From Trypanosoma brucei (lineage: Eukaryota), in NCBI GenBank assembly GCA_000002445.1, contig CH464491.1:704001-768000 (forward strand): a DNA stretch of 64,000 bases, in the 5' to 3' direction. Below, piece by piece: positions 1,548-18,615 of the stretch. Below the pieces are notes generated by a model. The model ran no database searches, was not told the origin of the DNA, and saw only the letters and a program-made list of their open reading frames with translations. Position numbers and translations under genes: made by a program. Numbering within the stretch: the stretch's first letter is position 1; each line of letters opens with the position of its first letter.

Positions 1548-3245
1548 TTATGCTGTCCCAAAGAGTGAGGCTGCAAAGGTTTGTAGGAGTAATGTTACAC
1601 CGAAACCTGTGGCGTCACCGCGGGTAGCAGGTGCTGCGAGGTCGACGTGTGCCCAATCCCCCTTGTATTTGCTGTCTATGTGACTCCCAACAAAGTAACC
1701 GGCGCAGCTAACTTGTGCATTCGAGCGATTCAGCACGGAGTTACGGCTGTCTGCTACACTGCTTCTGAACTCGGGGCACTGGAATTCTGGACAGAAAACA
1801 ACAGGGAAACAGAGGTCACCGCAGCGGCGTCCCGCCTGAAGGACGCGGTTTTCAATTTCCTCACTACTGGCATATAATGCGGCATGATAGCGGCCAGTGG
1901 CAATACCCTGAGCTCCCGTAAGCGTCGCCATGTCCACAATAACATCAGGTGTATAAGGCAGAAGAGCCGAGGCGTGGTAAACTCCATCGCCAAGTACCAG
2001 TCGACCTTCAGCATCTGTGTTATTGATCTCCACAGTTTTCCCTGATCTCATCCGCACAATATCGTCATTGCGCTGAGAGCGGGGTCCAACAGCATTGTCA
2101 GCAAGGCACAGAATGGACGAAATACGGTGAGGGACGCCGATCATTGCAAGTCCAATAAACCCACAAAAGACAGCAGCCGCACCGCCCATATCGTGCTTCA
2201 TCCCACACATGCCCGTCGTGGGTTTAATGGAGAGACCGCCAGTGTCGTATACAATACCCTTTCCAACAAAGGCCAATTTTTCTTGGGGATTTATGCCGCT
2301 GCCCCCGGCCGCATTGGGCTCGTAGGACAACGTTACCAAGTGCGGTGGATATTCCGCTGCCTTTCCAACACCATAAATTCCACCATATCCTTTTTCCCGC
2401 AGATCCTCTCCACTGATGATGTCAATGGAAACGTTGCGCTTCAACTTATTTTTCAGTTTAGCGATGTGTCCAGCAGCGATCTCCGTGAAAGTCGTTGTGT
2501 CCAGTAGGTTGCAAGGAGAATCAACCAAGCGTTGACAAAGCTGAATGGAGAGAGCTGCCGCATCGAGGTATTCCCGCTTTCCACATGCAAAAGTGTCACT
2601 TGCCTCGCTGAGGCTCTGCTTTCGCGTGTCTGGGGCAAACACGACTCGGACAGGAATGCCACGATTCCAGTACGACTTCTCAGCGTAACCATTCTTTGCA
2701 GAAAAACTTTGATTGGCGCCACGCGCAACGGCAGCCGCCACGCAAAGCACGTTTTCGGCTTCGCAACAGTAAATATCGAGCGCACCTGAGGCTGCTGTGA
2801 CACCCTTTACTTTCTTGGCATATGCCACGGCTTCCTCCACAATGTTGGTGATGGAGTCGGGCCGAAGAGGACAGTTATGGCGGGAGAAGGCTCCTGCTAT
2901 GACTCCAAGTGTAATACGTAACTCGTGGTTAGTGCCACACCGGTAGCCATCACTCCTGAAGCTTGCCTCGTCGATTTCGTCGATTAGTTGATCTAGCTCA
3001 GGTTTGTGGTACGGGAATAACTGGCTGAGTCCTTTACTTTTCAGCTGCTGGCGAGTTCCAAGAAGAAGAATAGTGTGGGGTTGAGGTGCGCTGTTGGAGG
3101 TGAGAACTTTGGCCATATGCTTTCCTTCAGTTGTGGTGTGAAACGTTACATTTGGCACAAAGTTAACGCAACTGTCAACAAAGCTCGACAAGTTGCTTTC
3201 CTCATAAACCGAGTTGCTGCGTTGCCGCTTGAGGGTTGCAGGCAT
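1548..3245 (-). CDS. Leucyl aminopeptidase, peptidase family M17
   Basis: Contains the M17 signature NTDAEGRL and the VGKGIVYDTGGLSIKP metal- and substrate-binding region. At 565 aa it is typical for a cytosolic leucyl aminopeptidase. ATG start confirmed. Confidence 0.9.
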   Translation of the reverse strand: MPATLKRQRSNSVYEESNLSSFVDSCVNFVPNVTFHTTTEGKHMAKVLTSNSAPQPHTILLLGTRQQLKSKGLSQLFPYHKPELDQLIDEIDEASFRSDGYRCGTNHELRITLGVIAGAFSRHNCPLRPDSITNIVEEAVAYAKKVKGVTAASGALDIYCCEAENVLCVAAAVARGANQSFSAKNGYAEKSYWNRGIPVRVVFAPDTRKQSLSEASDTFACGKREYLDAAALSIQLCQRLVDSPCNLLDTTTFTEIAAGHIAKLKNKLKRNVSIDIISGEDLREKGYGGIYGVGKAAEYPPHLVTLSYEPNAAGGSGINPQEKLAFVGKGIVYDTGGLSIKPTTGMCGMKHDMGGAAAVFCGFIGLAMIGVPHRISSILCLADNAVGPRSQRNDDIVRMRSGKTVEINNTDAEGRLVLGDGVYHASALLPYTPDVIVDMATLTGAQGIATGRYHAALYASSEEIENRVLQAGRRCGDLCFPVVFCPEFQCPEFRSSVADSRNSVLNRSNAQVSCAGYFVGSHIDSKYKGDWAHVDLAAPATRGDATGFGVTLLLQTFAASLFGTA

Positions 3246-4517: not shown

Positions 4518-5087
4518 GATTTATGAAAACGTTGCGAGCTCGTTTACTGCTGTTGTTAATATGGCTATAACCATTATTTCATCTTCTTTCTTTTCCTTCC
4601 TTCTTCTCGGTTTACGTACTTCATTCGTCAGCATCATTTTCCCCTCTGCACCCATCACTTTCGGGAGAGGTAAGGGAGAAGCGTGAAACGGTAAGTGGAA
4701 ACAACAGCATAACCTCGTCAGCAAAGTCCGCCGGCCGGCAACATTAAAAAATGAAAAAAAAAGGAGAATGAGCAACCGAAGAAGAGACCTAGTAGAAAAA
4801 TTAAGAAAAAGTGCAGGTACGAGTGTATAGAAAACACATGTGCGTTTCGTCTGCTCCGCAGTGCTATCCACCATCAGCAAATAGTTGCAATTCAAACAAA
4901 AAACAAAAGGAAACAAAAGTAGCGACCGCTTGCAGAGGGGTGCAATGGAGGAAGAGAAAGGGAAAAGAGAGAACAATGGAAGAAGGTGCAGTAAAATTCT
5001 TTTCTTTCCGGGAACTTCATATCCCACAACTTCACAGTCACACATATTCCCAACGCGGACTTTGCACGAATGAGCCCCACACATAAG

Positions 5088-5700: not shown

Positions 5701-8700
5701 CTACGTCTGTGCAAGCACGTCAACAAGGCGGTCCAAGGCACAGCACTCACCCGAATGGTCCCCGCAGCTTCGAGCCTCTTTCATTGCCTGCAGTGCCGTC
5801 TTCAACTCATTCAAAGCGTTATCAGTCAACAACGAATCTGAGCACACACGTCGGAGGGCTGCCTCAACGTCAATCGGCTCCGTATGGTTTCGCACGAAGG
5901 GAATAACAACATCATTCAGTTCGTCCTCCTCGTCGCTATTACCACTACCATTTTTCACACCTGCTCTCGAGCCACCTTGACGACTTCTTTCGATCTCCAT
6001 AGTGCCACCGGCTCTGCCTTTCATGGATAGCCTCGGTGTGGTGCCGCGTGGTGTCATGAGTGCTGTGGCTTCACGCTGCTTTATTTTCTCTAAGGAGTTG
6101 ACATTCTCGTCCACATGTCTCCAGTAAGTCAAATCACCGTGCACTTCTTCGGCCTTCTCTCCATCCTCCAGCGCCCGCCGCAAGCAGAGGATACTCTCCT
6201 GGCACGTTACACCGGGGCTTTCATACAATATGTTCCGTATGACATGACGAAGTCCATCGTAGAACTCGTCACTGTTCTCCATGTCGTGAAATGTAACAAA
6301 GAGAGAGCGTTGCACCATGCGCAGCAGTGCACGGCTCCCGGGTGAGCTTATCACCCACATGGTGTTTTCCCAGAACTGACTGCTGCCTACGACATATACA
6401 CTGTTGGTCGCGACCACAGACGGTTCAGTGCCCTTTGTATTGTTACTGCTACCATTGACATTACTGCCTACGCGGTTTCCACCCTTGCCGTCGTCTTGTG
6501 AATTCGGGTTCCACACCAGATCTTCCAACTTGACGCAGCGGGCCGTGGCGGGCCCGAGGTAAACTTTCTTGGCACAGTGCGCCACACGACTCACAATGCG
6601 CGAGAAAAAGTTGTGCGGCACCATGTTCAATGTAAAGCGGTAAAAAGGACCATGTAAAAACGATGGCACGTGCATGCAGAACGAAGAGGGAGTGGGATTC
6701 ATGAAGCACGAGGGTATGAGCACAAAATGCTCTGACTCGGGACCACCTGAGGGACCCGCAGATTTTTTCCGTCCAAGCCCGGATCCAACTTCCCTCATGT
6801 CTTTCCCAGCATTCGTCGGCGACGACTGTACGCTTGTGTTTTCATCGTTGAAAAAAGAGTACTGAAGTCGACTACCCATAATGATAAAGTCATAACTGCG
6901 CAACAACTCCAGCAACCCACCTAGTTGTGCGAAACCATATCCCTTTTCCTTTAGTACTCCATCGAATAGAGCTAACGCTGTCCTCATTGTCAAAACACCC
7001 TGAAGCAAGGCTCCACATACATCTTCAATTAGAACAGCATCCACATCGAATGGAAGGGATTTTCTCATGCTTTGCATAACCTCTCGGCACAGGACGAGTG
7101 GCACGGAGCGGAGAGACGAGTCATTTCCAGGGAGTTTGGGTGTCACAGTAGAGCAGCATGACAAGGTAGCCACGACGCGAAAAACCCACGGTGTGTCCAC
7201 AATTACATACTTCCTCATGGCACGGTGCCTGTAGTGGTGATGCAACACACCCCAACTCATTAAAAGTTGAATATGTCGATGGAGGTCGTCCAAATTGTCA
7301 CTGTAGCGGTTATCCAATGCATTGGCAACTGATTTAAACTCTCCAAAGGCTACACACCACTTCCCTTCACGGTTTATTTCTTTCGTTCGCTTCCCAAGGG
7401 ATAGCAGCAACTTTGGAACCTGAGCATTTGGAAAGTCAGCATCATTGCGGCAGCGCCGAATAGCTTGATCCCCAAACCAGGAAAGCAAATCAGGGAATTT
7501 CCTCAACCGCTCAAACATTGGTGCAAAAACAGTGCGGTTAACATTATCCACAGCGAAGCACCCAGCGATGGAGGGCCGCATGTCTCCAACAACTTGCAGC
7601 GTACGAAAGTAATTGTTCACTTGCATCTCAAGTTCGGAGAAATGTTGAGCTAACTTACTGCTCTTAAGCGGGGAGCGGTCGAGGTAAGTTCCAACCAACA
7701 CCACAGAAGTGTCTCGGGTGGTGGTGTGTGAAAGAATAAACTCCAAAAAGGGCAGAAGGCCTTCGAACGGGACGCTCTGAAGAAGTGAAAAGCATAACAC
7801 ATAAGTTGCACGGCGCGTTGGCAGAAGCCCCTGGAGAAGAGAAAAGCAACCAGTCCCCCCTAATTCCATCACATTCATCTCCACAGACGGATACTCCCCT
7901 GTGCTTGAAATCGTTGTTGACTCTACTCCAAAGGAGGGTCGCAAGTTCTTTTGATCACTAGTGAAGATCGAGTACCATTTGTCCTGTTTGTGCAAGTTTT
8001 CGCGGAAAGAAGTTTTCCCGCAGCTGCCGCAACCGAGCACAAGGAAGGTGTGACGATAAATAACATTGTATTCGTCGTCTCTGAGTTTTAACCTCCTTGC
8101 CGTCTTCACTGCACGAATTCGCTCCATACCTTCGCCAGCACCAATACGACTTCTCCCTACTCCCTTTGCAGTCCTTGGTAAACGAACTGACGTGGGTCGG
8201 ACGTCGGCCGCCACTGGGTCTTTGTGAGTTGGCGGGCGATAGGTGTTTGTTTGGGCCTGGTGTTGCAGAACATCTTTCAGCTGCAATGCTGGAACAAAAG
8301 GGGAAACACCACTACCCGCAGTAATGGGGGGAACAACAGGTACTGCACTACCACCATTACCAGTATTAGCGGCACTAGACGCGATGCCTCCTCTCGGACT
8401 GTTAGTGGCGGCAACGGTAGTGATACCAACACCCACACTTTGTGTTGGTGCAGGGATTCTCAAGCTAGGTACGGAGCTTTCGGAGATGCTTTTAAAACGA
8501 GGTGAGAGTATTGTACCCTCCGCCGAGCGCATAGGACGACGCCGCGCAGTCATCGACGGCGCTGTGGGGTCTGTGAACTTGAACTGCAGAAATTCATCTC
8601 CAATGCACACCACGGTACCACTCATTAACGGGACGTCCCTCGATATTGGTTCCTGTTCGTCATTAATGTACGTGAGGTTGCCCTCCAGAGGTCGAAGTAA

Positions 8701-10419
8701 CACACAACCATTTCCCTGGCGAACGAAGCAACAGTGCCGTGGAGCGACTCCGCTGGTTCCCTCTCCACTCACTGTGATGCTCCGCCACTCGCTCCCTGGT
8801 GTTGGCTCTTCTGTTCCAAGGTATGTGGTTCCAGCCACAAGGTGCTCAACCACCCAATCCCCTACACCTTCCATATTTAGAATAAAGGGCTCATTACGGT
8901 CTAACTTAATTGTTGGGTGCGTTGGCCTTGGTGCCTCTTGCTGTTTCCCTTCCGCTTTGGTGAGTTGCTTTATAAGTTCTTCCGCCTGCTCCAATTTTGA
9001 TAACAAAACAGCAGCGTCATGTGGCCTTCGTGGTGTCATGGAGGGGATGCTACTCTCTAGATCCTCCATGTTACTGGCGGGGCCGTGGCCGCCCCCAGTG
9101 GAATTGGGTAACCCACCAGGATTTGCTAAATCTGGCATTACTCCTCCCCGAAGAGCAAGTTCCTCGTAGTGCTTCATCTTCTCTCGCAGTTGCTGTACCT
9201 CTTCTTCCAACTCACGTATTCTCTTATCCCCTGCTGCGGCGTTTACAACTGCACGGGTGACGATAGACTTAGCACGATCCGCATAGCGCAGCGTGCTCAT
9301 CGTTTCGTCGTAGTTTGCCGCTGCCGGGCTGAGCGTAGACAACATGAACGTTTTACTGTTCCCGCCGAGAGACTCCTTAAGGATAAATGTTAAGGTGGAG
9401 TCACGATACGGGACGTGTCTTCGTCCACCAGCATCCGGCTTGCTTTTTCCGATGTCTGCTAAGGCACTAATCACCTGACCTAAAACCGTCAGAGATTTGT
9501 TTATATTTGCTCCCTCACGCAATGTGCCACCTTCTGCACCCGTAGACTTTGCCCTCTCACTTCCTGCAAGGTCCACCAGGTTAACTTTTGCACGGAGCTC
9601 TGTGCATGACACCGTACCATCTTTTACCTTCCCCATACGCTTCTGGATTACTGTGATTGAGAATATGGCGTGAGATCTACTTGAACGGTCATTCATATTT
9701 GTTGCTGCAATGTGACGACTTTGATTTCCTCCGTGCATCACTTGCATCATACTCTCCTCAGAATCCACTTGCACCTCCGAAATACCTTCAACATATACAC
9801 CCAACACCTTGTGCTCGCGGACTTTGAGGTTCTCACACTTTGGATTAAGAAGGCAGTTGACACGCTCCTGGTATATTTCCATGTAGCTCACGAGAACTGT
9901 AATGTTCAACTGCGGTGGAAGTGCATTTTCCTCAACGCCTGATGAGCGCGCCGCCTCTCGTTCCCGCTCGTTCTCCGCCACTTCCTTCGCAACCATCTCA
10001 AAAAGACCCCTGGAAAGTCGGGGAATAATACCGGGGTCAACCACTACATCACGGCCACCCGAAGGACCCATCATGGAGTAGCTCTTCCCGCTTCCAGACT
10101 GGCCATATGCGAAAACACATGCATTGAAACCTTTAATGGTTGCCTGGAGAACGGGGATACCAAGATACTCGTACACAGTTGTTTGGCTGTCGTTGCTGTC
10201 AAAAGCTCGGTCGAAGCTGAAGCACTTTCCCCCCGCCGCATCACACCCTGCGTCAGCCGCCGCACCGTTGGGGACACTTGACTTGTAAATACTAACCGTT
10301 TTTCCATTTTGGAACTGTAGGCAAATGGGTGAGTTGAGACGCTTCTCCCGCTCGTTGAGAGGTCGGGCACGCACGCAAACGGTCACATGCCCCTCCTCCG
10401 CATCGCGTGGCTTCGACAT
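5701..10419 (-). CDS. Kinesin heavy chain, kinesin-3-like: an N-terminal motor, then an FHA-like domain, then a Roc-COR (ROCO-type) GTPase module and a long C-terminal tail
   Basis: The motor carries the P-loop GQSGSGKSYSMMG, the switch motifs SSRSHAIF and LVDLAGSER, and a neck coiled coil. An FHA-like segment maps to about 8560..8907 (NMEGVGDWVVEHLVAGTTYLGTEEP...CFVRQGNGCVLLRPLEGNLTYINDEQ). The Roc-like GTPase maps to about 7495..8058, with G1 LVLGCGSCGKTS, a switch II-like MELGGTG, G4 VVLVGTYLD (compare LRRK2 VILVGTHLD) and FAVDNVN. A COR-like region follows, containing LLMSWGVLHHHY and YVIVDTPWVFRVV. The track ORF begins 50 codons upstream at 10569, but that extension runs through the minus-strand polypyrimidine tract, so I place the start at the first Met of MSKPRDAEEGHVTVCVRARPL. 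Confidence 0.85.
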   Translation of the reverse strand: MSKPRDAEEGHVTVCVRARPLNEREKRLNSPICLQFQNGKTVSIYKSSVPNGAAADAGCDAAGGKCFSFDRAFDSNDSQTTVYEYLGIPVLQATIKGFNACVFAYGQSGSGKSYSMMGPSGGRDVVVDPGIIPRLSRGLFEMVAKEVAENEREREAARSSGVEENALPPQLNITVLVSYMEIYQERVNCLLNPKCENLKVREHKVLGVYVEGISEVQVDSEESMMQVMHGGNQSRHIAATNMNDRSSRSHAIFSITVIQKRMGKVKDGTVSCTELRAKVNLVDLAGSERAKSTGAEGGTLREGANINKSLTVLGQVISALADIGKSKPDAGGRRHVPYRDSTLTFILKESLGGNSKTFMLSTLSPAAANYDETMSTLRYADRAKSIVTRAVVNAAAGDKRIRELEEEVQQLREKMKHYEELALRGGVMPDLANPGGLPNSTGGGHGPASNMEDLESSIPSMTPRRPHDAAVLLSKLEQAEELIKQLTKAEGKQQEAPRPTHPTIKLDRNEPFILNMEGVGDWVVEHLVAGTTYLGTEEPTPGSEWRSITVSGEGTSGVAPRHCCFVRQGNGCVLLRPLEGNLTYINDEQEPISRDVPLMSGTVVCIGDEFLQFKFTDPTAPSMTARRRPMRSAEGTILSPRFKSISESSVPSLRIPAPTQSVGVGITTVAATNSPRGGIASSAANTGNGGSAVPVVPPITAGSGVSPFVPALQLKDVLQHQAQTNTYRPPTHKDPVAADVRPTSVRLPRTAKGVGRSRIGAGEGMERIRAVKTARRLKLRDDEYNVIYRHTFLVLGCGSCGKTSFRENLHKQDKWYSIFTSDQKNLRPSFGVESTTISSTGEYPSVEMNVMELGGTGCFSLLQGLLPTRRATYVLCFSLLQSVPFEGLLPFLEFILSHTTTRDTSVVLVGTYLDRSPLKSSKLAQHFSELEMQVNNYFRTLQVVGDMRPSIAGCFAVDNVNRTVFAPMFERLRKFPDLLSWFGDQAIRRCRNDADFPNAQVPKLLLSLGKRTKEINREGKWCVAFGEFKSVANALDNRYSDNLDDLHRHIQLLMSWGVLHHHYRHRAMRKYVIVDTPWVFRVVATLSCCSTVTPKLPGNDSSLRSVPLVLCREVMQSMRKSLPFDVDAVLIEDVCGALLQGVLTMRTALALFDGVLKEKGYGFAQLGGLLELLRSYDFIIMGSRLQYSFFNDENTSVQSSPTNAGKDMREVGSGLGRKKSAGPSGGPESEHFVLIPSCFMNPTPSSFCMHVPSFLHGPFYRFTLNMVPHNFFSRIVSRVAHCAKKVYLGPATARCVKLEDLVWNPNSQDDGKGGNRVGSNVNGSSNNTKGTEPSVVATNSVYVVGSSQFWENTMWVISSPGSRALLRMVQRSLFVTFHDMENSDEFYDGLRHVIRNILYESPGVTCQESILCLRRALEDGEKAEEVHGDLTYWRHVDENVNSLEKIKQREATALMTPRGTTPRLSMKGRAGGTMEIERSRQGGSRAGVKNGSGNSDEEDELNDVVIPFVRNHTEPIDVEAALRRVCSDSLLTDNALNELKTALQAMKEARSCGDHSGECCALDRLVDVLAQT

Positions 10420-10430
10420 CCCAATACGAA

Positions 10431-10540
10431 TATATGCGTCGCAACGAATCAAAACGAAGGAGGGTGTGGTAAGGAAAGAAGGACGAGGGGTTTCTTCAAT
10501 AAAGATAGAACAACCCCCAAAATCTATATCTGCACCCTTT
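10431..10540 (-). promoter_or_regulatory. Polypyrimidine tract and probable splice-leader acceptor region upstream of the kinesin ATG
   Basis: On the minus strand this reads ccctcgtccttctttccttaccacaccctccttcgttttgattcg, immediately 5' of the ATG at 10419. This is the usual trypanosomatid arrangement for trans-splicing. Confidence 0.5.
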
Positions 10541-11910
10541 TGATGGTAATTTCTGTAACCTTCGGCCACTCAACTTCTTGTTCTTTTTCGTTATCCCTCG
10601 CTTATGTTCTATTAGTAACCCTCCTTTAAGGTACTTGGCGGTACACGAACTGAAATCACAAAGTAATTCACCGTGAGGTGCGTACTTAGAGAGAGAGAGA
10701 GAACGTGCAAGTCCAGCCTGTGATAGTTGGGTCCGATGAAGGCTGTAACACTTCAGCACGGGAAATATCCGCACCTTCCACCTAACAATAGCAACTTTCC
10801 TCGTCCTTTCCGTCGTTGTTGCCGTTCCTTTTTGGTGAGAGAACTTTTCTCCCCTTTTGCCTGTATGTGTTTCCTCTCTTTACTCAGGTTTTTCGTCTAC
10901 CTTTCTTGTTCACACCTCGTTTGGACTACTCTCCAGAAAGCCTTGATTATTTTTTTCTTCCTTGCTTTTTCTTTGTTGGCGCTACTGACGTGATGAATGC
11001 TCTTTGTTTTTTTTTGAAAAAAAAAAAAAGAAAAGCAACTCTCAATTCCACGTCGGCCAATTCTTCAACAAAAATGTGGTCCCTCCTTTCCAGCAGACGC
11101 GTTAGTAATAAGCTACTTCTGCTAATGCTCTGCGTATGCGAATGTATGAGTGAAACATACGAATACGAGCATTGTTGACGTTATATGTGCGTGGAAAGTG
11201 GAGGAAGGGTAAGGATAAAAGGAAAGGAAAGCATCAGAAAGCAAAGGATGAGAAAAATTCGGTACATTCAATAACATTTATAGTTCTGAAGAGGAGTAAA
11301 ACACACAACTCCGTGCATCGCGAACATCAGATAGAGGTATATTATTCATTAAAGTAACCACATTAATATTTAAATAGAAGATTAAAAAAAACATAGCAAA
11401 AGAAGTAGCAACATAACATATGTATGCATATGCATATAATAAAAAAAGAGAAAGGAGAAAGGGAGGACATTGTAAAGAAAACCCATGGCAAAGGCAGGGT
11501 TTGGTTTGTACTTCTCTTCCTTTATTATTTTTTTAAATGTAAATTCGCTCCTAAAACATTCCCTACTTTGCACCAGAGATCCGCATTTTTTCCAGCCGCG
11601 CAAATGATAAATACGGCGGCGCAGTCGTTCAGTTGTTATGAGAGGCCAAAGAAGTTTGGTCAATTATAACCTTTAAAATAAATAAATATATATATGTTTC
11701 CCTTTCCCTATAAAATAATATAGGAAAAAAACACAAAAGGGGAAAATGTGGCGATAACAGAACTCCGTAATATAAATGACAGCGTAGGAAAGAGAAAAAA
11801 GAAAAAAGAACAACAAGGAACGCTGGAAAAAAAAACGTAAAAAAAAAGATAGATCAAGATGACCAACCATTCATACAGAATGGAAAGGGGTAACGACCGG
11901 TTTTTTTTTT

Positions 11911-13422
11911 TCAGTTGGCATCGTCACGGTAGCGACGCTCCAAGTGCTCCCGGTGGTATTGCGGATTGAGCGGTTCGCCGGTGGCTTGCTTGATGAGTTC
12001 TTCTGTTAAGAGAGAACTTCCATGACGCCAGATCTTCTCCTTCTGCTTCGCAAAGATTACGTCGAGGTCTGCTTTCATGAGGCAGTCTTCCACAACGTTT
12101 TCCCCGAGCTCCCGCCGTACGGTATGCATCAGCTGCGCCGCAAGCATGGCACCCAGGAGGTAAGTGGGGAAGTAACCAAATGCCCCACCAAACCAGTGAA
12201 TATCCTGCAAGCAACCCTCCTTGTCATTACCGAGGGTTTCAAGACCAAAATAGGCCTTCATCTTCTCATTCCATGCACGAGGAACATCCTCTGCTTCGAT
12301 TTTACGGTCGATTAAGTCACGCTCGATCTCACAACGCAAGATGACGTGCAGGGGGTAGCAGAGCTCATCGGCCTCAATGCGAATAAGGCTTGGTTGCACC
12401 TGCTGCAACACTCTCTTCATGTTTGTTGGAGTGAAGGCGGGTTGCTCGCCAAAGTGCTCCACGAGCATGGGGGAAAGCGCGTTCATAAAGGCACCCGAGA
12501 GTCCAATTTGCATTTCCGCAAAGAGCGATTGGCTTTCGTGTACCCCTAGAGAACGGGCCCTACACACAGGTTGGGTGGTGAACTCGACAGGACCCAAATT
12601 TTGTTCGTACTTTGCGTGCCCAGTTTCGTGGATGACACCAAAGAGGCTTTTGGCGAAATCGTTTTCATTGTAGCTGGTCGTAATGCGCACATCCTCCTTG
12701 ACGTTACCACAAAATGGGTGAGCGCTTACGTCCAGTCGGCCGCCATCAAAGTTAAACTTCCACAACTTCATGCACGCACGTCCGAGAGTTTCTTGCTTGG
12801 CAATAGGGAATGGTCCCTTGGGTTGCACAATAGATGCGTTAAGTGATTTCTGCTTCTCCAAAACTTCTTTCAAGAGGTTGGGTAGCCATGACTTCACATT
12901 TTCGAATATTATGTCCAGTTGCTTAAGCGTCATGCCAGGTTCATAGACGTCAACAAGGGCCTCGTACGGGTGCACGCCGGTGGTTCCTGCAAGAAGCTTT
13001 CCCTCCTCACGATACAGCTCGACGAGTTCTTTAAACGTGGGAAGAAACCCAGCGAAATCATTTTCCTCCCGGCACTTCTTCCACAGTTGTTGTGAGTTGG
13101 ACGTTAGGAGGGCCTTACGTTCCACAAATGCCTCAGGAAGGCGATTGACCTTCTCCCAACTTCGGCGGATTTCTCGCAAATTGGCCCGTTGAAGTTCATT
13201 AAGTTCCCCCACAGAGCCCTCCGCTTCCTCAATGAATGTCTTCACTTTGGGGTTGGTAATCTCTCCGTGCATGAGCACTTCCAATTCCGCAATTGCTGCA
13301 CCACGTGCTTCCATTGCATTGGGGGGCATGATGGCTTGCATATCCCAACCAGCAAGGTTCATGAAGTGCTCATAGCGGTATAGTTTAGTGAAGACGCGCT
13401 CGAGCTCTTTGTATGCCTTCAT
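11911..13422 (-). CDS. Metallocarboxypeptidase, peptidase family M32 (Taq-like carboxypeptidase)
   Basis: The four M32 signature motifs HETGHAKYEQ (HEXXH), HESQS, IRIEADE and GCLQDIHWFGGAFGYFPTYLLGA are all present. The N-terminus MKAYKELERVFTKLYRYEHFMNLAGWDM is typical for the family. ATG start confirmed. Confidence 0.9.
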   Translation of the reverse strand: MKAYKELERVFTKLYRYEHFMNLAGWDMQAIMPPNAMEARGAAIAELEVLMHGEITNPKVKTFIEEAEGSVGELNELQRANLREIRRSWEKVNRLPEAFVERKALLTSNSQQLWKKCREENDFAGFLPTFKELVELYREEGKLLAGTTGVHPYEALVDVYEPGMTLKQLDIIFENVKSWLPNLLKEVLEKQKSLNASIVQPKGPFPIAKQETLGRACMKLWKFNFDGGRLDVSAHPFCGNVKEDVRITTSYNENDFAKSLFGVIHETGHAKYEQNLGPVEFTTQPVCRARSLGVHESQSLFAEMQIGLSGAFMNALSPMLVEHFGEQPAFTPTNMKRVLQQVQPSLIRIEADELCYPLHVILRCEIERDLIDRKIEAEDVPRAWNEKMKAYFGLETLGNDKEGCLQDIHWFGGAFGYFPTYLLGAMLAAQLMHTVRRELGENVVEDCLMKADLDVIFAKQKEKIWRHGSSLLTEELIKQATGEPLNPQYHREHLERRYRDDAN

Positions 13423-14061: not shown

Positions 14062-17000
14062 TTATTGGCTTAGATTCACTTTTTGTTTTTTCTCTGCCCT
14101 CCGTTGCTTAGCGAGTTTAGAAAGTTTAGCCTTGTTTCCCTTTAAGTTACTTCTTTGTGCTACAACTTCCAACCGTTGTATTGCCTCCCGCTGGTGGCGC
14201 CGATTCATGTACTGCCTATTGAGTGGCACATACGCGTAAGGGGCTAAACCACCACGACGCACGTCGCCCTCACCAGTTCCTTTAAACTCATCACCACGGA
14301 TGATATCTGCTTCGACGCGCGCGCGCTTGAGCTCCCGCTTCTCCTGTTTCTGCTCACGAAGTCGCTCCACTTGATTGACACCTGGTCCCACAACCCGACG
14401 AGCAGCCGCTGCAGCCCCTTCATTATTGATCTTGTCTCCATAGCGCAACAATAGTTCATCATTTTCAAAGTCTTCAACGTCATTACGAGTTCGCTTCCCG
14501 CGCTGCGCAACCGCACCCTCATTAAGCGCATCCGCGTGAACAAGGCCGTTGCGGGAGCGGAGGAGTTTTTTGGCCATCTCTTCGCGTCGTCGACGATCAT
14601 CCTGCTTTCGCTTCTCTTCCGCTGTCATGATATGAAGCTTGCCTTCTTGGAATTCGATGTGCATGTTGTCCAGTTCGTCATCATCTTCATCCCCATTGTA
14701 GCCTCTGCCAGCCGAACCTGCATTGAAGGAAGGCGAAGCATAAGCTGAAACAAAACTTGTGAGTCCGCCAGCCTGCAGAAGGTCACGCTCTGCATCATCC
14801 TCCGTTCCAGCCTTCATGCCGGCACCAAGGAAGAGCCTGTCAAACTCATTCTTCCGCTCTTCAGTGCGTTTGCGGAGCTCTCTCTCTTCCTTCTTCTGCT
14901 CGCGCTTCATCATCTTTTGCGTGTAACGGAGGAAGTTCTTAGAGCCAATGGGAAAGGTGGGCTCAAGTCGTTCGTAGCCGAACCGCTTGATGCACTTTTC
15001 CAGTATCACGCGCATCTGAAGACGGGTGTTGCTTGACACACGCGGTTGCGAGGTTGTGAGGGCGATTGCTAACATCAACTTCGAAATAGACTTCTCTACC
15101 GCAGCCCCTACACGTCTGCTCCGCTTCATCATTTTGAGCAGCATACGTACAAACATCGCGGCGGCTGAGCGCACGTCAAGAGCCGTAGATTCCATCATGC
15201 GAATTCCTAAAGCCACTGCCGCATCAAGATCTTTCTCAGGAAGCTCTTCATGAGCGACAGATACAATCTTTGCCATAGCCACAAGCGTGCTAGAAATCAT
15301 CCATGTGGTTTTCCCAGAGAATCCAGCGAGCACAAGGTGCAGCAGGGTGTTGACAGGATTTCCAGCGCCAATTAAGTAACGGTGCATTTTTTCCAACAAA
15401 TCCATGGAGAGTGTGCGAACCTCACTAGAGCGTTCGCGGGAAAGTGTGATGGTTTCTCCCACAATCGCACGTATCATTGTTGTGACGTGATCCGGGTAAA
15501 ACATCTTACAGGCATCAAGGGCCCACACAATGCACCGCAGACGCATTTTAATGCCAGATATAGTAACGTTCTGGCGTCCTACAGAGAGAATCCCTGAAAT
15601 GCGCGTGAACAGCGGGAAAATGTCCTTGCTACGGAACTCAAACATCGAATAGAGAAGTTTGTATGCTTTTTTCTGCAGCAGACGTGACTCGGGTGCTGGG
15701 TCCATTAGTACCGGTTCGATGATGTCGTCGAACAGTTTCACCAAATGTTCCTTCTCGAGTTGTTCGACAACGGCACAAGCAATGTCGAGTATCATGCGGC
15801 GCTTTCCAGTCAAAGGCGCATATCCCGCCTTCTTCACTACTTTGTCACCCCTTTCCTCTGCCTTTTCTTGCAGTAACTGTTGTTTATGTGCGATATTAGC
15901 CCCGACGTCCAGAATACCCTTCAAAATAACCTGCATGACCTCCCGCGAGCATACCCGAGAAAAGCTATGAATGGCGCGAAGGATGGACGTGGAGTTGTGA
16001 GTTTCGAAAGTGTTGCACAACTTGGGCATTATGTTCGCACTGAAACGCGAAAACACATTACCACAGACGTCCTTCGCTGTGGTTTGGGAAATGCCATGGT
16101 AAACATGGCGGTTCCACGTGGGGTCATTTAAAGAAAGAAAGAGATCATCCTCATCCAGGCTGTTCTTGTGTCCCAGTCCGACCTTCGCGCGAACTCGGTT
16201 CGAGGAATCCTCCTCTTGCTGTTCATCTGCCAGCCACCCCTTCTCTTGTTCCTCTGCCTCTCCCACGCCATCATTGATATCATCATCATCATCCACTGGT
16301 TCTGTCGATGCCAAATCGTAATAACCACTGCAGAGCATATGCAGAGCAGTAGCACCTGCGTCAGCGAAGAGGGGGTGAGGAAGGAGGCCAACAAGTTGCT
16401 TTGCGACGTCACGGAAAGAGTCTTTATCCACTATACGGGGATACTGACAGAACCCAATAGCCAAACGCCAATATTGCTGCAGCAGCGCTGTCCATTTCGC
16501 TGCTAGCTCTACCTGCTGCTGGCGCCCATACTCTAGGGCCACGCCACTAGTAAACTGAATGAGTGGGAAGAAGTACTCAACAAAAAAGGGCAGTGAGTCA
16601 TGCGACGCCGTGCGCCTAAGCACGCCCATCACATAACTATTTATCCACGGATCGTCGTCGGGAGACGGGTACGCGCCACCGATGGCAGTGCCCCTCAACT
16701 CCGCCTCGTAGACTTGGCGGGGATCAAATGGAATGATATCCACAAATTCCCGGACCGTCATACCTCTGCCTAAAGCGACCATGGCACGTTCGATTGCCCC
16801 ATTTAACTTACCATCATCCATTCTCCGCATTTTGTTCAGTACGCGCAAGAGGAAGTGAAAGGAGGGGAAGCGTCTCGTCAGTAGCATGGCATCGCCAGCA
16901 GCTGTGCGCTTAAGATAATTGATTCGGTTGAATAGTGCCTCAAGAATTTCCAAGGCATAGCTCCAGTACACCTGACAATGCGGTTTCAACAATTCCAACA

Positions 17001-17940
17001 GCCGATTTGAAACAATTTCGTCAATCATTTCCCGTCCCTCAGCCGATTCGACGATGTAGGGAGAAATAGTCCGCCGGATTAACACGGTAAACTCTGCAGT
17101 GGTGGAAGAAACGACACTTAAGGGGGCGTCAGTGAAGTTGCTGACACAAAGAGCCGCAAAATGCCGAACCCCCTGTACGAAAAAATTTTGATTATCACTC
17201 AGTATGTAGACACCACCTTCTGAGACGTTGTTCCTGGTGCCTCCAATGGATTCATCGGTTGGGGAATGTGCTGCCGATCTTTCGAGAAGTTTACGGAAGG
17301 CCACCAAGTACATTTTCATGATGTCAACTTGCATTTTGCTAGGCTCCAAGCGAGAAAAAACATTGAGCACCTTCATGGAAGGCGATTCTACAGAGAGGAC
17401 TAGCTGTTGGGAAAACTTCATTGCCTTCGCCACCGCGAGGTAATTGCTCGCTATGTTTTCCGCAATGACTCGTTCAACAGTTGCAATAGATGGTTCCAAC
17501 TGATGCAGCAGCATCCCTTGGCTTAGTCGCGGAGCGCAAGCCGACAGGATGGCAAGGATGTACGGCACGTGATGTTTCTCTGGCGAAAGGGAAAGGGCCG
17601 TAGACGCTGCCATAAAGAGTGAGAGCGGAGTAACAGGTTCACCAAGGCTCTCAATTGACTCCACCAGACCGCCCTGAACACTCTGAAGAATGCCTTGATC
17701 AAAGGTTTTGTGAATTTTCTTGTTTTGGGCAGCCAATACCCGTTTTGTTACCTCCCTCTTCTGCGCGGATTTCTGTACCTCAGTCTTCTGTCGTTTTACC
17801 ATGAGGGCCTCCCGCTGCAGACGCAAGAGCTTCTGACGACTCAAATTGGTACCTTTACGGAGTTGCTTGAGGGGCGTCCTGGTGCTCTTGCTAGCGAAGG
17901 CGCCTTTGCCTCTTTGCGCAGCCGCACTAGGAGGTTTCAT
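14062..17940 (-). CDS. Large HEAT/ARM-repeat protein, RRP12-like, possibly a pre-ribosome export or biogenesis factor
   Basis: About 1290 aa of helical repeats, a central acidic stretch (DDDDDINDGVGEAEEQE) and a lysine- and arginine-rich C-terminal tail. The motif CIKRFGYERLEPTFPIGSKNFLRYTQKMMKREQKKEERE resembles, as best I can recall, the conserved RRP12 C-terminal region. The first codon in the track is GTG; I used the adjacent ATG at 17938..17940. Confidence 0.45.
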   Translation of the reverse strand: MKPPSAAAQRGKGAFASKSTRTPLKQLRKGTNLSRQKLLRLQREALMVKRQKTEVQKSAQKREVTKRVLAAQNKKIHKTFDQGILQSVQGGLVESIESLGEPVTPLSLFMAASTALSLSPEKHHVPYILAILSACAPRLSQGMLLHQLEPSIATVERVIAENIASNYLAVAKAMKFSQQLVLSVESPSMKVLNVFSRLEPSKMQVDIMKMYLVAFRKLLERSAAHSPTDESIGGTRNNVSEGGVYILSDNQNFFVQGVRHFAALCVSNFTDAPLSVVSSTTAEFTVLIRRTISPYIVESAEGREMIDEIVSNRLLELLKPHCQVYWSYALEILEALFNRINYLKRTAAGDAMLLTRRFPSFHFLLRVLNKMRRMDDGKLNGAIERAMVALGRGMTVREFVDIIPFDPRQVYEAELRGTAIGGAYPSPDDDPWINSYVMGVLRRTASHDSLPFFVEYFFPLIQFTSGVALEYGRQQQVELAAKWTALLQQYWRLAIGFCQYPRIVDKDSFRDVAKQLVGLLPHPLFADAGATALHMLCSGYYDLASTEPVDDDDDINDGVGEAEEQEKGWLADEQQEEDSSNRVRAKVGLGHKNSLDEDDLFLSLNDPTWNRHVYHGISQTTAKDVCGNVFSRFSANIMPKLCNTFETHNSTSILRAIHSFSRVCSREVMQVILKGILDVGANIAHKQQLLQEKAEERGDKVVKKAGYAPLTGKRRMILDIACAVVEQLEKEHLVKLFDDIIEPVLMDPAPESRLLQKKAYKLLYSMFEFRSKDIFPLFTRISGILSVGRQNVTISGIKMRLRCIVWALDACKMFYPDHVTTMIRAIVGETITLSRERSSEVRTLSMDLLEKMHRYLIGAGNPVNTLLHLVLAGFSGKTTWMISSTLVAMAKIVSVAHEELPEKDLDAAVALGIRMMESTALDVRSAAAMFVRMLLKMMKRSRRVGAAVEKSISKLMLAIALTTSQPRVSSNTRLQMRVILEKCIKRFGYERLEPTFPIGSKNFLRYTQKMMKREQKKEERELRKRTEERKNEFDRLFLGAGMKAGTEDDAERDLLQAGGLTSFVSAYASPSFNAGSAGRGYNGDEDDDELDNMHIEFQEGKLHIMTAEEKRKQDDRRRREEMAKKLLRSRNGLVHADALNEGAVAQRGKRTRNDVEDFENDELLLRYGDKINNEGAAAAARRVVGPGVNQVERLREQKQEKRELKRARVEADIIRGDEFKGTGEGDVRRGGLAPYAYVPLNRQYMNRRHQREAIQRLEVVAQRSNLKGNKAKLSKLAKQRRAEKKQKVNLSQ

Positions 17941-18615
17941 CACCCTGTTGTATTACTTTCCTTCTTATGGAGTGTACCTTTCCACCTGCTATTCCGTCTT
18001 ACTGCCGATAAAACATAATGGTCGCAAAATAATAATGGCAATAGTAACAACAACAAAAGAGAATCAAACAAGAATCATTTGTTTTATTGCGGTATTCAGT
18101 GATGTTAACACTTTCCTCCACCACAGTTCACCATCCAGGTAGGGCATTAAGAGACCACCGAGAGAATGCAGTGCCGAAGAAAGATCCATATACTTCCAAC
18201 AGTACAAAAAACTAAAGAAGGTGCGCGAAAAGTGGTTGGGGTCGACCATTCCAGAGACAACTAGCGGAGAAAAAAAAATGACAACACACATCATCTCAAC
18301 CCATTTGCTACGCCCCAAAAACACTGGGAGCGGAATGGACAAATTAAAAGATAAAAAAAAATCAGACCCTTTGGACTTGCGGGGGTACTTCATTTAAGGA
18401 ACCATCTTCCGTTCCAAATACAAGTGTGTCACCCCCCCCTCTCTCAATATGCATCAGCACACTTAAAGTTTTGGCCTCAAATGTATACCTTCCCCTTTGT
18501 TTGCGCACCCTGACATCGTGTCACTGGAGTTCATGTTGTGAGGCAATTGCCATTTGCGCGGATTCGAGTTCCTTTCTTCATGAGCTTCCGATAAACCGGG
18601 CGCTGCAACGTCCAC

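What the first reader, a model, noticed from the sequence alone, without database searches (positions are those of the whole stretch)
5701..10419. Kinesin-3-like motor and FHA domain fused to a Roc-COR (ROCO-type) GTPase module
This single ORF of about 1570 aa starts with a canonical N-terminal kinesin motor (P-loop, switch I and switch II) and neck coiled coil, followed by an FHA-like domain, as in the KIF1/Unc104 family. From about residue 790 it contains a Ras-like domain whose motifs line up one-to-one with Roc domains of ROCO proteins such as LRRK2. G1 is LVLGCGSCGKTS versus IVGNTGSGKTT. A switch I Thr lies in FGVESTT. Switch II is MELGGTG versus WDFAGRE. The following ATYVLCFSL matches ALYLAVYDL. 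G4 is VVLVGTYLD versus VILVGTHLD. G5 is FAVDNVN. A COR-like segment follows, with the characteristic GVL...HHY and VIVDTPW (DPxW-like) elements. A cytoskeletal motor physically coupled to a ROCO GTPase is not an architecture I know to be described. The E-for-D substitution in switch II (ELGG) raises the question of whether the domain still hydrolyses GTP or acts as a constitutive GTP sensor or dimerisation device.
Basis: partly seen in the sequence, partly recalled or inferred. Interest (0 to 1): 0.8.

Follow-up and report, generated by a model that had tools for sequence, protein, structure and literature searches.

The report
Kinesin-3 motor fused to ROCO GTPase
A single trypanosome gene encodes a microtubule motor of the KIF1A/Unc104 type whose tail is a complete Roc-COR GTPase module of the kind found in the Parkinson's protein LRRK2; the fusion is conserved across kinetoplastids and diplonemids, and I found no paper describing it.

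Summary
Window 5701-10419 (minus strand) is one uninterrupted 1572-aa ORF. It reads: kinesin-3-type motor, neck coil, FHA domain, about 160 aa of disordered linker, Roc G domain, COR-A, COR-B, and a conserved C-terminal three-helix element.

The window sequence alone gives only weak Roc and COR hits in Pfam (Ras E=0.005, COR-A E=0.18). Three further lines of evidence settle it:
- A profile of 18 family members finds LRRK2 as the top 25 PDB sequences (E=2.6e-26). Roc-only chains score 20 bits above the best Rab.

The same architecture occurs in Trypanosoma, Leishmania, Leptomonas, Bodo, Papus and at least six diplonemid genera, so the fusion is old and is not an assembly artefact.

The Asp-to-Glu change in switch II is fixed across kinetoplastids. 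The diplonemids and Papus keep DxxG. The true switch I position is Ser829, not a Thr in ESTT.

Function is inferred: most likely a nucleotide-dependent dimerisation or regulatory tail for the motor. I rate it a new variant of known kinds.

The parts
5701..10419 (-). Complete CDS, 1572 aa plus stop codon: the kinesin-3 / ROCO hybrid. It is probably T. brucei Tb927.11.2490 (= Tb11.02.0090); this identification is inferred, not verified.
   Evidence: Single uninterrupted ORF. Orthologues of the same length and layout exist. The gene ID is inferred from the neighbouring M17 and M32 peptidase genes and from papers that list Tb927.11.2490 / Tb11.02.0090 as the best T. brucei hit of KIF1A/UNC-104.
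9262..10371 (-). Kinesin motor domain, aa 17-386. P-loop GQSGSGKS, switch I SSRSH and switch II DLAGSE are all intact.
   Evidence: Pfam Kinesin E=8e-103. Best PDB matches are KIF13B 9.4e-98, KIF1A 1.7e-92 and KIF14; other kinesin families score 238 bits or less.
9145..9225 (-). Neck coiled coil, aa 399-425 (KRIRELEEEVQQLREKMKHYEELALRG). A second short helix follows at aa ~467-494 and is CC1-like.
   Evidence: Read from the sequence. The region aligns with the part of relatives that hits Pfam Kinesin_assoc, a kinesin-3 tail domain found in 14 of 30 relatives. Kinesin_assoc is not detected in the window protein itself.
8569..8892 (-). FHA domain, aa ~510-617. The Pfam core match covers aa 556-607.
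   Evidence: Pfam FHA 23.2 bits, cut-off 20.7. FHA is found in 9 relatives, best E=7.2e-07. Weak PDB hit to the afadin FHA domain, E=0.033.
8080..8562 (-). Low-complexity linker, aa 620-780, rich in Ala, Arg, Pro, Ser and Gly. Presumed disordered.
   Evidence: Composition. No Pfam hit. Poorly conserved in alignment A3.
7525..8067 (-). Roc (Ras of complex proteins) G domain, aa 785-965. G1 GCGSCGKT (796-803); G2 Ser829; G3 ELGG (852-855); G4 TYLD (911-914); G5 FAVDN (954-958).
   Evidence: Family profile against PDB: LRRK2 E=2.6e-26; Roc stretch 73 bits; Roc-only chains 79 bits against Rab6 at 59 bits. AF2 pLDDT is about 90. Residues invariant across the family: G796, G801, K802, G855, T911, A956.
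6850..7497 (-). COR-A, aa 975-1190. It includes WGVLHHHY (1056) and VIVDTPW (1072).
6730..6849 (-). Disordered insert between COR-A and COR-B, aa 1191-1230.
   Evidence: AF2 pLDDT below 50 for model residues 410-448. Length varies in alignment A4.
6109..6729 (-). COR-B, aa 1231-1437, an alpha/beta domain. It contains one internal disordered loop at aa ~1307-1338.
5707..5868 (-). Conserved C-terminal three-helix element, aa 1518-1571, ending in LDRLVDVLAQ. Function unknown.
   Evidence: AF2 pLDDT 88-96. 'LDxLVDxL' is conserved from trypanosomes to diplonemids; D1563 is invariant in A5.

Best explanation
SHOWN: The gene encodes one polypeptide. An N-terminal kinesin-3-type motor has intact ATPase motifs, a neck coil and an FHA domain. 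A roughly 160-aa flexible linker follows. The tail is a complete ROCO module (Roc G domain, COR-A, COR-B) and ends in a conserved helical element. The architecture is conserved in kinetoplastids and diplonemids, so it predates their split.

INFERRED MECHANISM: The Roc-COR tail takes the place of the PH, PX or CAP-Gly cargo domains of animal kinesin-3s. It acts as a guanine-nucleotide-dependent regulatory and dimerisation device.

Kinesin-3 motors are largely monomeric and autoinhibited, and they become processive when they dimerise (PMC10945585, PMC9314371). Roc-COR tandems dimerise through COR-B, and in the bacterial homologue they cycle between dimer and monomer during GTP turnover (PMC5714945, PMC6337361). 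Joining the two would let the nucleotide state of Roc decide whether two motor heads are held together and active, or released and inactive or autoinhibited. It could possibly also decide whether cargo is bound.

In kinetoplastids, nucleotide binding is probably retained: G1 GxxxxGKT, G4 T..D and the G5 Ala are conserved. Hydrolysis is probably slow or dependent on a partner, because switch II is ExxG, the residue at the Ras Gln61 position is variable, and switch I is Ser in this species.

The confidence of 0.5 applies to the inferred mechanism. Confidence in the domain architecture itself is about 0.95.
For: Architecture:
- Pfam on the window protein.
- The motor's best matches are kinesin-3.
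- The family profile finds LRRK2 at E=2.6e-26, with co-linear Roc, COR-A and COR-B stretches.
- AF2 model pLDDT 81.6, pTM 0.83.
- The top 12 Foldseek hits are all ROCO proteins, with 637-738 aligned columns except M. barkeri Roco2, which lacks COR-B (410).

Conservation of the fusion: the single search returned 42 proteins, and 24 of the 30 aligned carry a kinesin motor. Among those 30, Roc is found in 14, COR-A in 16 and COR-B in 9. The taxa are T. grayi, T. congolense, Leishmania, Leptomonas, Angomonas, Strigomonas, Bodo, Papus, Diplonema, Lacrimia, Sulcionema, Flectonema, Rhynchopus and Namystynia.

The nucleotide-binding residues G796, G801, K802, G855, T911 and A956 are invariant, and D914 is at least 90% conserved.

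The mechanistic premises come from the literature: the Roco monomer-dimer cycle (PMC5714945), dimerisation through the C-terminal half of COR (PMC6337361), and kinesin-3 activation by dimerisation (PMC10945585, PMC9314371).
Against: - There is no experimental or computed evidence here for dimerisation, GTP binding or motility. The mechanism is an analogy.
- Switch II DxxG is described as the most conserved region of Roco proteins (PMC6337361). It is ExxG in this protein and in kinetoplastid relatives. Together with Ser for the switch I Thr, this could mean that the switch is impaired.
- A few relatives have lost the G4 Asp (P0013 THAN, P0016 TFYY, and possibly Leishmania P0008), which suggests relaxed constraint in some lineages.
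- Kinesin-3 motors can also dimerise through their neck coil and CC1-FHA region, so the tail may not be needed for that.
- LRRK2's own dimer-monomer cycle is still debated (PMC6337361).
Confidence: 0.5

Rival explanations
1. Cargo-adaptor reading. The motor dimerises through its own neck and CC1-FHA region. The Roc-COR tail is the cargo-binding end. Like a built-in Rab, GTP-bound Roc would recruit the motor to a specific membrane or flagellar cargo, and hydrolysis would release it.
Against: No effector or membrane-binding motif was found: there is no prenylation CaaX box at the C-terminus (the sequence ends ...VLAQT). Switch I is poorly conserved across the family, which is unusual for an effector-binding surface. 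In known ROCO proteins the Roc domain signals within the molecule rather than through free effectors (PMC6337361).
Confidence: 0.25
2. Pseudo-GTPase reading. In kinetoplastids the Roc domain no longer cycles, and Roc-COR is a static structural or dimerisation scaffold retained from a functional ancestor of the diplonemid type.
For: D852E is fixed in switch II throughout kinetoplastid-type members. The residue at the Ras Gln61 position is variable (T, K, R, H, L). Ser829 replaces the switch I Thr in the window protein. The G4 Asp is lost in some relatives. Pfam Roc and Ras scores fall below cut-off in trypanosomatid members but lie above it in diplonemids.
Against: The P-loop GxxxxGK[ST] is intact in every member. 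The switch II Gly, G4 Thr and G5 Ala are invariant, and the carboxylate at position 852 is kept as Glu rather than drifting. This is the pattern expected under continued selection for nucleotide and Mg binding. The window protein itself keeps the G4 Asp914.
Confidence: 0.2
3. The GTPase-like region is an ordinary Ras/Rab-like or other P-loop domain followed by unrelated sequence. The COR resemblance is chance.
For: On the window sequence alone, Pfam gives only Ras E=0.0046 and COR-A E=0.18, both below cut-off. A two-sequence profile ranks Rit1 slightly above LRRK2.
Confidence: 0.02
4. The fusion is an artefact: two neighbouring genes joined by an assembly error or a missed frameshift, or processed into two mRNAs.
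For: The motor-FHA half and the Roc-COR half are separated by about 160 aa of low-complexity sequence. No T. brucei transcript data were available here.
Against: The reading frame is continuous over 4.7 kb. The same end-to-end layout is found in independent genome assemblies (T. grayi, Bodo, Leishmania, Leptomonas, D. papillatum) and in single-ORF de novo transcripts of several diplonemids and of Papus.
Confidence: 0.02

Closest known systems
ROCO proteins (LRRK2, LRRK1, C. tepidum Roco, M. barkeri Roco2)
   Different: There are no LRR, ankyrin, armadillo, kinase, WD40 or death domains. None of the three described ROCO topologies fits (PMC6337361). The partner domain is an N-terminal kinesin motor with an FHA domain. 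Switch II is ExxG instead of the highly conserved DxxG. Sequence identity to LRRK2 is only 12-18%. The review read here lists ROCO proteins in prokaryotes, Dictyostelium, metazoa and plants, not in Euglenozoa.
Kinesin-3 family (KIF1A/Unc104, KIF13B, KIF14, KLP-6)
   Same: The motor is most similar to KIF13B and KIF1A (E about 1e-97 to 1e-92). The layout is N-terminal motor, neck coil, a short CC1-like helix, then FHA. Relatives carry the kinesin-3 Kinesin_assoc domain. Databases name the orthologues 'Unc104-like kinesin'.
   Different: The tail has no PH, PX, CAP-Gly, MBS or DUF3694 domains; it carries Roc-COR instead. Loop 12 has only a modestly basic insert (GKSKPDAGGRRH) rather than the lysine-rich K-loop. 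Kinesin_assoc is not detected in the window protein itself. No formal phylogeny was run.
Diplonemid and prokinetoplastid kinesin-ROCO orthologues (e.g. D. papillatum KAJ9456547, D. ambulator P0032, Papus P0017)
   Same: The domain order is the same from end to end. The window matches their profile at 268 bits over aa 785-1415. The C-terminal 'LDxLVDxL' helix is shared.
   Different: They keep canonical Roc motifs (GHEEVGKT, DFAGQE or D.SG, THxD, AVSCK) and pass the Pfam Roc cut-off. They also have a Cys-rich C..C...W...CxxC motif after COR-B that kinetoplastid members lack.

Membership tests
ROCO (Roc-COR) proteins | A Ras-like G domain of the Roc type, closer to Roc domains than to other small GTPases. 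| tested here: met
   With the family profile, LRRK2 Roc-only chains score 77-79 bits (E about 1e-21), LRRK1 scores 60 bits and the best non-ROCO protein (Rab6) scores 58.8 bits. Pfam Roc exceeds its cut-off in relatives: P0032 49.3, P0040 48.8 and P0023 32.4 bits, cut-off 27. The window sequence alone is below cut-off (Ras 17 bits), so membership rests on the family profile and on structure.
ROCO (Roc-COR) proteins | A COR-A domain immediately C-terminal to Roc. | tested here: met
ROCO (Roc-COR) proteins | A COR-B domain, the dimerisation half of COR, following COR-A. | tested here: met
ROCO (Roc-COR) proteins | A conserved switch II DxxG motif, stated to be the most conserved region of Roco proteins (PMC6337361). 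| tested here: not met
   The window has E852-L-G-G. Glu is fixed in kinetoplastid-type relatives. Asp is kept in Papus and in all diplonemid members. The Gly of the motif (G855) is invariant.
ROCO (Roc-COR) proteins | GTP binding and hydrolysis, and COR-mediated, nucleotide-dependent dimerisation. | not testable with these tools
   Only motif conservation could be assessed: G1, G4 and G5 are intact, while the G2 and G3 positions carry conservative substitutions (Thr to Ser, Asp to Glu). Biochemistry is needed.
ROCO (Roc-COR) proteins | An accessory LRR (or kinase) domain flanking Roc-COR. This is typical of the three described groups but is not part of the definition. | tested here: not met
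   Pfam finds no LRR, ANK, ARM, kinase, WD40 or death domain in the window protein at E of 1 or less, or among the families common to relatives.
Kinesin-3 family | An N-terminal kinesin motor with intact catalytic motifs, most similar to kinesin-3 motors. | tested here: met
   Pfam Kinesin E=8e-103. GQSGSGKS, SSRSH and DLAGSE are present. The top PDB hits are KIF13B (332 bits), KIF1A (314) and KIF14 (270); the best score from another family is 238 bits.
Kinesin-3 family | An FHA domain downstream of the neck coil. | tested here: met
   Pfam FHA 23.2 bits against a cut-off of 20.7, at aa 556-607. Found in 9 relatives, up to E=7.2e-07. Afadin FHA E=0.033.
Kinesin-3 family | A lysine-rich K-loop in loop 12, and the Kinesin_assoc region. 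| tested here: inconclusive
   Loop 12 reads GKSKPDAGGRRH, with 2 Lys and 2 Arg. It is basic but not the KIF1A-type poly-Lys loop. Kinesin_assoc (PF16183) is found in 14 relatives, best E=8.9e-25, but not in the window protein.
Kinesin-3 family | Placement inside the kinesin-3 clade in a kinesin-wide phylogeny. | not tested
   No tree was built. The assignment rests on best-hit ranking and on domain layout.

The most novel reading that the evidence does not exclude
Kinesin-RocCOR is a fourth, previously undescribed ROCO topology. It arose before kinetoplastids and diplonemids diverged. In it, the nucleotide state of a Roc-COR module directly gates a microtubule motor through GTP-dependent dimerisation or autoinhibition, rather than gating a kinase. 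If so, it would be a natural and genetically tractable system (T. brucei) for reading out Roc-COR switching as motility. It would also be an independent evolutionary link between ROCO GTPases and microtubule transport, alongside LRRK2's binding to microtubules and its blocking of kinesin.
Probability: 0.35. Interest if true: 0.85.

Novelty: new variant of a known kind. Interest (0 to 1): 0.7.

Why it matters
ROCO proteins are studied mainly because of LRRK2 and Parkinson's disease. How the Roc-COR GTPase cycle controls an output domain is still debated (PMC6337361). All described topologies pair Roc-COR with LRRs, with or without a kinase. Here the output domain is a kinesin motor, whose activity can be measured at the single-molecule level and depends strongly on dimerisation. 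Dimerisation is exactly the property that Roc-COR is proposed to regulate.

For kinesin biology, this is a new kind of kinesin-3 tail, and a candidate for how an early-branching eukaryotic lineage regulates its only clear KIF1A-like motor. For parasitology, the protein is conserved in Trypanosoma and Leishmania and has no host counterpart with this architecture.

Databases currently label it only 'Unc104-like kinesin, putative' or 'hypothetical protein'. None of my four searches for the fusion found a paper describing it.

Tried and rejected
- The word-index homology search (search for homologous proteins) was nearly useless here. Three searches returned only the T. congolense fragment P0001, or nothing. 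The single exhaustive HMMER search supplied all the relatives.
- The exact-sequence look-up of the window protein found no record. The organism and gene ID (T. brucei Tb927.11.2490) are therefore inferred from neighbouring genes and the literature, not proven.
- NCBIfam gave nothing, as expected for a library of prokaryotic families.
- The two-sequence profile against PDB was ambiguous (Rit1 E=0.005, LRRK2 E=0.014). It was superseded by the 18-sequence profile.
- The AFDB fold library was unavailable. I could not see how AlphaFold DB or UniProt annotate the T. brucei entry, or whether the fusion exists outside Euglenozoa.
- Four literature searches for a kinesin-ROCO fusion found only LRRK2-kinesin interaction papers. 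Searches for T. brucei kinesin-3/FHA and 'Unc104-like kinesin' found nothing describing the gene's tail. The gene ID appears only in BLAST tables.
- Rejected: a generic Ras/Rab domain, an assembly artefact, and the antisense 308-aa ORF at 8243-9169 (+) as a real gene.
- Not attempted: dimer prediction (the tool models single chains only), a kinesin or Roc phylogeny, and a search for euglenid or other non-euglenozoan members.
Full report
**1. What is in the sequence**

Window 5701-10419 on the minus strand is one uninterrupted ORF. It is 1572 aa counted from the ATG at 10419. The frame stays open upstream to a GTG at 10569. The T. grayi orthologue places its motor domain at the same residues (17-387, against 17-386 here), which supports the ATG as the start.

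All 22 ORFs of 250 aa or more in the window lie on the minus strand, except one antisense ORF inside this gene. This is the one-stranded gene arrangement typical of a trypanosomatid transcription unit. The flanking genes encode an M17 aminopeptidase and an M32 carboxypeptidase.

Two papers list Tb927.11.2490 / Tb11.02.0090 as the best T. brucei BLAST hit of KIF1A/UNC-104 (PMC7002101, PMC3008729). From this and from my own recollection of the chromosome 11 gene order, the gene is probably Tb927.11.2490. That is an inference, because an exact-sequence look-up found nothing.

**2. The N-terminal half**

- Pfam finds a full kinesin motor (E=8e-103, aa 17-386) and an FHA domain above the curated cut-off (23.2 against 20.7 bits, aa 556-607).
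- Against PDB sequences, the motor ranks KIF13B (332 bits), KIF1A (314) and KIF14 (270) first. The best kinesin from another family scores 238 bits.
- P-loop, switch I and switch II are canonical.
- A neck coiled coil (aa 399-425) and a short CC1-like helix precede the FHA domain.
- Fourteen relatives also hit Kinesin_assoc, the kinesin-3 tail domain. The window protein does not.
- Loop 12 is basic but is not a KIF1A-type K-loop.

I call this kinesin-3-like by best hit and layout. I did not build a tree.

**3. The C-terminal half on its own sequence**

Direct Pfam evidence is weak: Ras E=0.0046 (below cut-off) and COR-A E=0.18. A profile of the window protein plus its T. congolense orthologue could not separate LRRK2 Roc (E=0.014) from Rit1 (E=0.005).

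**4. Relatives**

One exhaustive HMMER search with the C-terminal profile found 42 proteins, 24 of them below 1e-30.

The named hits come from these taxa:
- Trypanosomatids: T. grayi, T. congolense, Leishmania martiniquensis, Leptomonas pyrrhocoris, Angomonas, Strigomonas.
- Bodo saltans.
- The prokinetoplastid Papus ankaliazontas.
- Diplonemids: Diplonema papillatum, D. ambulator, D. japonicum, Lacrimia, Sulcionema, Flectonema, Rhynchopus, Namystynia.

Where they have a name at all, it is 'Unc104-like kinesin, putative', 'Kinesin-like protein unc-104' or 'hypothetical protein'.

Of the 30 aligned members, the Pfam counts are:

| Domain | Members | Best E-value |
|---|---|---|
| Kinesin motor | 24 | 8e-115 |
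| Roc | 14 | 2.5e-14 |
| COR-A | 16 | 1.7e-06 |
| COR-B | 9 | 1.3e-09 |
| Kinesin_assoc | 14 | 8.9e-25 |
| FHA | 9 | 7.2e-07 |

Individual members pass the curated cut-offs for Roc (P0032 49.3 bits, P0023 32.4) and for COR-B (Papus 38.5), always in the order motor, FHA, Roc, COR-A, COR-B. The members without a motor are mostly short fragments.

The diplonemid and Papus sequences are single-ORF de novo transcripts. In those lineages the fusion is therefore transcribed as one unit.

**5. Linking the window protein to those relatives**

I built an HMM only from the Papus and diplonemid rows, leaving out the window protein and its close kin. It matches the window protein as one continuous domain, aa 785-1415, covering HMM positions 5-569 of 595, at 268 bits. 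The best of 200 shuffles of the same region scored 2.4 bits. The whole Roc / COR-A / COR-B span is therefore homologous to proteins whose domains Pfam recognises.

**6. Profile against solved structures**

The 18-sequence Roc-COR profile (alignment A4) puts LRRK2 in the first 25 PDB places (E=2.6e-26, 95 bits). LRRK1 follows (about 9e-16), and only then Rab6 (2.4e-15). LRRK2 chains that hold only the Roc domain still score 77-79 bits, against 58.8 for Rab6. The G domain is thus specifically of the Roc type.

The alignment to LRRK2 has three co-linear stretches:
- Roc, 73 bits.
- COR-A, i-E=0.019, pairing 'WGVL.H...VF.DP.W' with 'GVLLHF...YFVEPKWL'.
- A short COR-B stretch, not significant by itself, pairing 'P..FFSRLV.R' with 'PMGFWSRLINRL'.

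**7. Structure**

AlphaFold2 on A4 gave a confident model of aa 781-1440: pLDDT 81.6, pTM 0.83, with three disordered loops.

- Foldseek against the PDB: the top 12 hits are all ROCO proteins (LRRK1 5.4e-16, LRRK2 1.3e-15, C. tepidum Roco 9.5e-13 and 5.4e-12, M. barkeri Roco2 1.3e-12). They align over 637-738 columns, except M. barkeri Roco2, which lacks COR-B (410). Plain small GTPases follow at about 1e-07 over roughly 210 columns.

The assignment stands.

**8. State of the GTPase motifs**

- Invariant across the family: G796, G801 and K802 (P-loop), G855 (the Gly of switch II), T911 (G4) and A956 (G5). D914 (G4) is at least 90% conserved and is present here.
- Switch II is E852-LGG. Glu is fixed in essentially all kinetoplastid-type members (one, P0016, has Asp). 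Papus and all diplonemids keep Asp, and one diplonemid group has the textbook Roc motif DFAGQE. The change is therefore old and clade-wide, not a quirk of this gene.
- The residue at the Ras Gln61 position is variable in kinetoplastids.
- The family's switch I Thr ('PTxG', aligned with LRRK2 'ATVG') is Ser829 in the window protein.
- A few lineages have lost the G4 Asp.
- A ROCO review calls switch II DxxG the most conserved region of the family (PMC6337361), so this is a real departure.

My reading is that nucleotide binding is probably kept, and that hydrolysis is probably slow or assisted by a partner. This cannot be decided from sequence.

**9. How it most likely works (inference)**

Kinesin-3 motors are mostly monomeric and autoinhibited, and they are activated by dimerisation (PMC10945585, PMC9314371). 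Roc-COR tandems dimerise through the C-terminal half of COR, and the C. tepidum homologue is dimeric when nucleotide-free or GDP-bound and monomeric with GTP (PMC5714945, PMC6337361).

In this protein the usual kinesin-3 cargo domain is replaced by Roc-COR, joined through a linker of about 160 aa. The most economical model is that the nucleotide state of Roc sets the dimer/monomer or open/closed state of the motor (confidence about 0.5).

The rivals are:
- A Rab-like, GTP-dependent cargo adaptor (0.25).
- A static pseudo-GTPase dimerisation scaffold in kinetoplastids (0.2).
- A generic Ras domain (0.02) or an assembly artefact (0.02). Both are effectively excluded.

**10. Comparison with what is known, and novelty**

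The ROCO family is defined by the Roc-COR tandem. The review read here describes three topologies (LRR-RocCOR, LRR-RocCOR-kinase, and the DAPK1 type) in prokaryotes, Dictyostelium, metazoa and plants (PMC6337361). A kinesin-RocCOR topology and a euglenozoan distribution are not mentioned there.

Four full-text searches that combined kinesin with ROCO, Roc-COR or kinetoplastid terms returned only LRRK2-kinesin interaction papers. The gene ID occurs only in BLAST tables.

The gene and its kinesin-3 identity are known to databases. The Roc-COR tail appears to be undescribed. Automated domain annotation of the diplonemid members may already show Roc hits, because they pass Pfam cut-offs. I rate it a new variant of known kinds: a new ROCO topology and a new kinesin-3 tail. 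It is not a categorically new system.

**11. Limits**

- There are no experimental data, and no dimer modelling was possible.
- There are no T. brucei transcript data.
- The AFDB fold library was unavailable.
- No phylogenies were built.
- The taxonomic range outside Euglenozoa was not searched.

Noticed in passing
P0040 (Trypanosoma melophagium XP_067186830.1, 982 aa), Roc at aa 263-390: At least one trypanosome has a second Roc-containing protein without a kinesin motor. Its motifs are canonical (GHQEVGKT, DFAGQE, ATHLDE, FAVSCK) and Pfam Roc scores 48.8 bits. By motifs it groups with the 'DFAGQE' diplonemid kinesin-ROCOs rather than with the window protein. Whether T. brucei has an orthologue was not checked.
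   Followed up: partly
window 5707-5868 (-), aa 1518-1571: A conserved C-terminal three-helix element (pLDDT 88-96) ends in 'LDxLVDxL'. It is conserved from trypanosomes to diplonemids and follows an acidic disordered stretch. I identified no counterpart in ROCO proteins or in kinesin-3 motors. It may be an autoinhibitory or adaptor-binding helix.
   Followed up: partly
Alignment A4 columns ~825-880 (C-terminal end of COR-B); the corresponding window region is aa ~1415-1440: Papus and all diplonemid members carry a Cys-rich 'C..C...W...CxxC' motif, zinc-ribbon-like, directly after COR-B. Kinetoplastid-type members, including the window protein, lack it.
   Followed up: no
window 8243-9169 (+): A 308-aa ORF (GTG start) lies antisense inside the kinesin-ROCO coding region. 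Every other long ORF in the window is on the minus strand, so it is almost certainly a by-product of the G+C-rich coding strand and not a gene.
   Followed up: no
window 1-64000: All 21 other ORFs of 250 aa or more are on the minus strand, the gene arrangement typical of a trypanosomatid transcription unit. Neighbours of the gene: M17 aminopeptidase (1548-3245), a 187-aa ORF with no Pfam hit (4521-5084), M32 carboxypeptidase (11911-13422), an RRP12-like protein (14062-17943) and a UDPGP-family (UTP-glucose-1-phosphate uridylyltransferase family) protein (18616-20253).
   Followed up: partly
P0008 (Leishmania martiniquensis, 2074 aa), P0009 (Leptomonas pyrrhocoris, 2168 aa): The Leishmaniinae orthologues are about 500-600 aa longer than the Trypanosoma proteins. 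Insertions lie within the motor domain (Pfam Kinesin spans aa 44-469) and within COR. Their Roc region falls below Pfam detection and gives only weak P-loop AAA hits.
   Followed up: no
window 10420-10569 (-): The reading frame stays open for 50 codons upstream of the ATG, back to a GTG. Orthologue N-termini support the ATG at 10419, so the extension is probably 5' UTR.
   Followed up: partly
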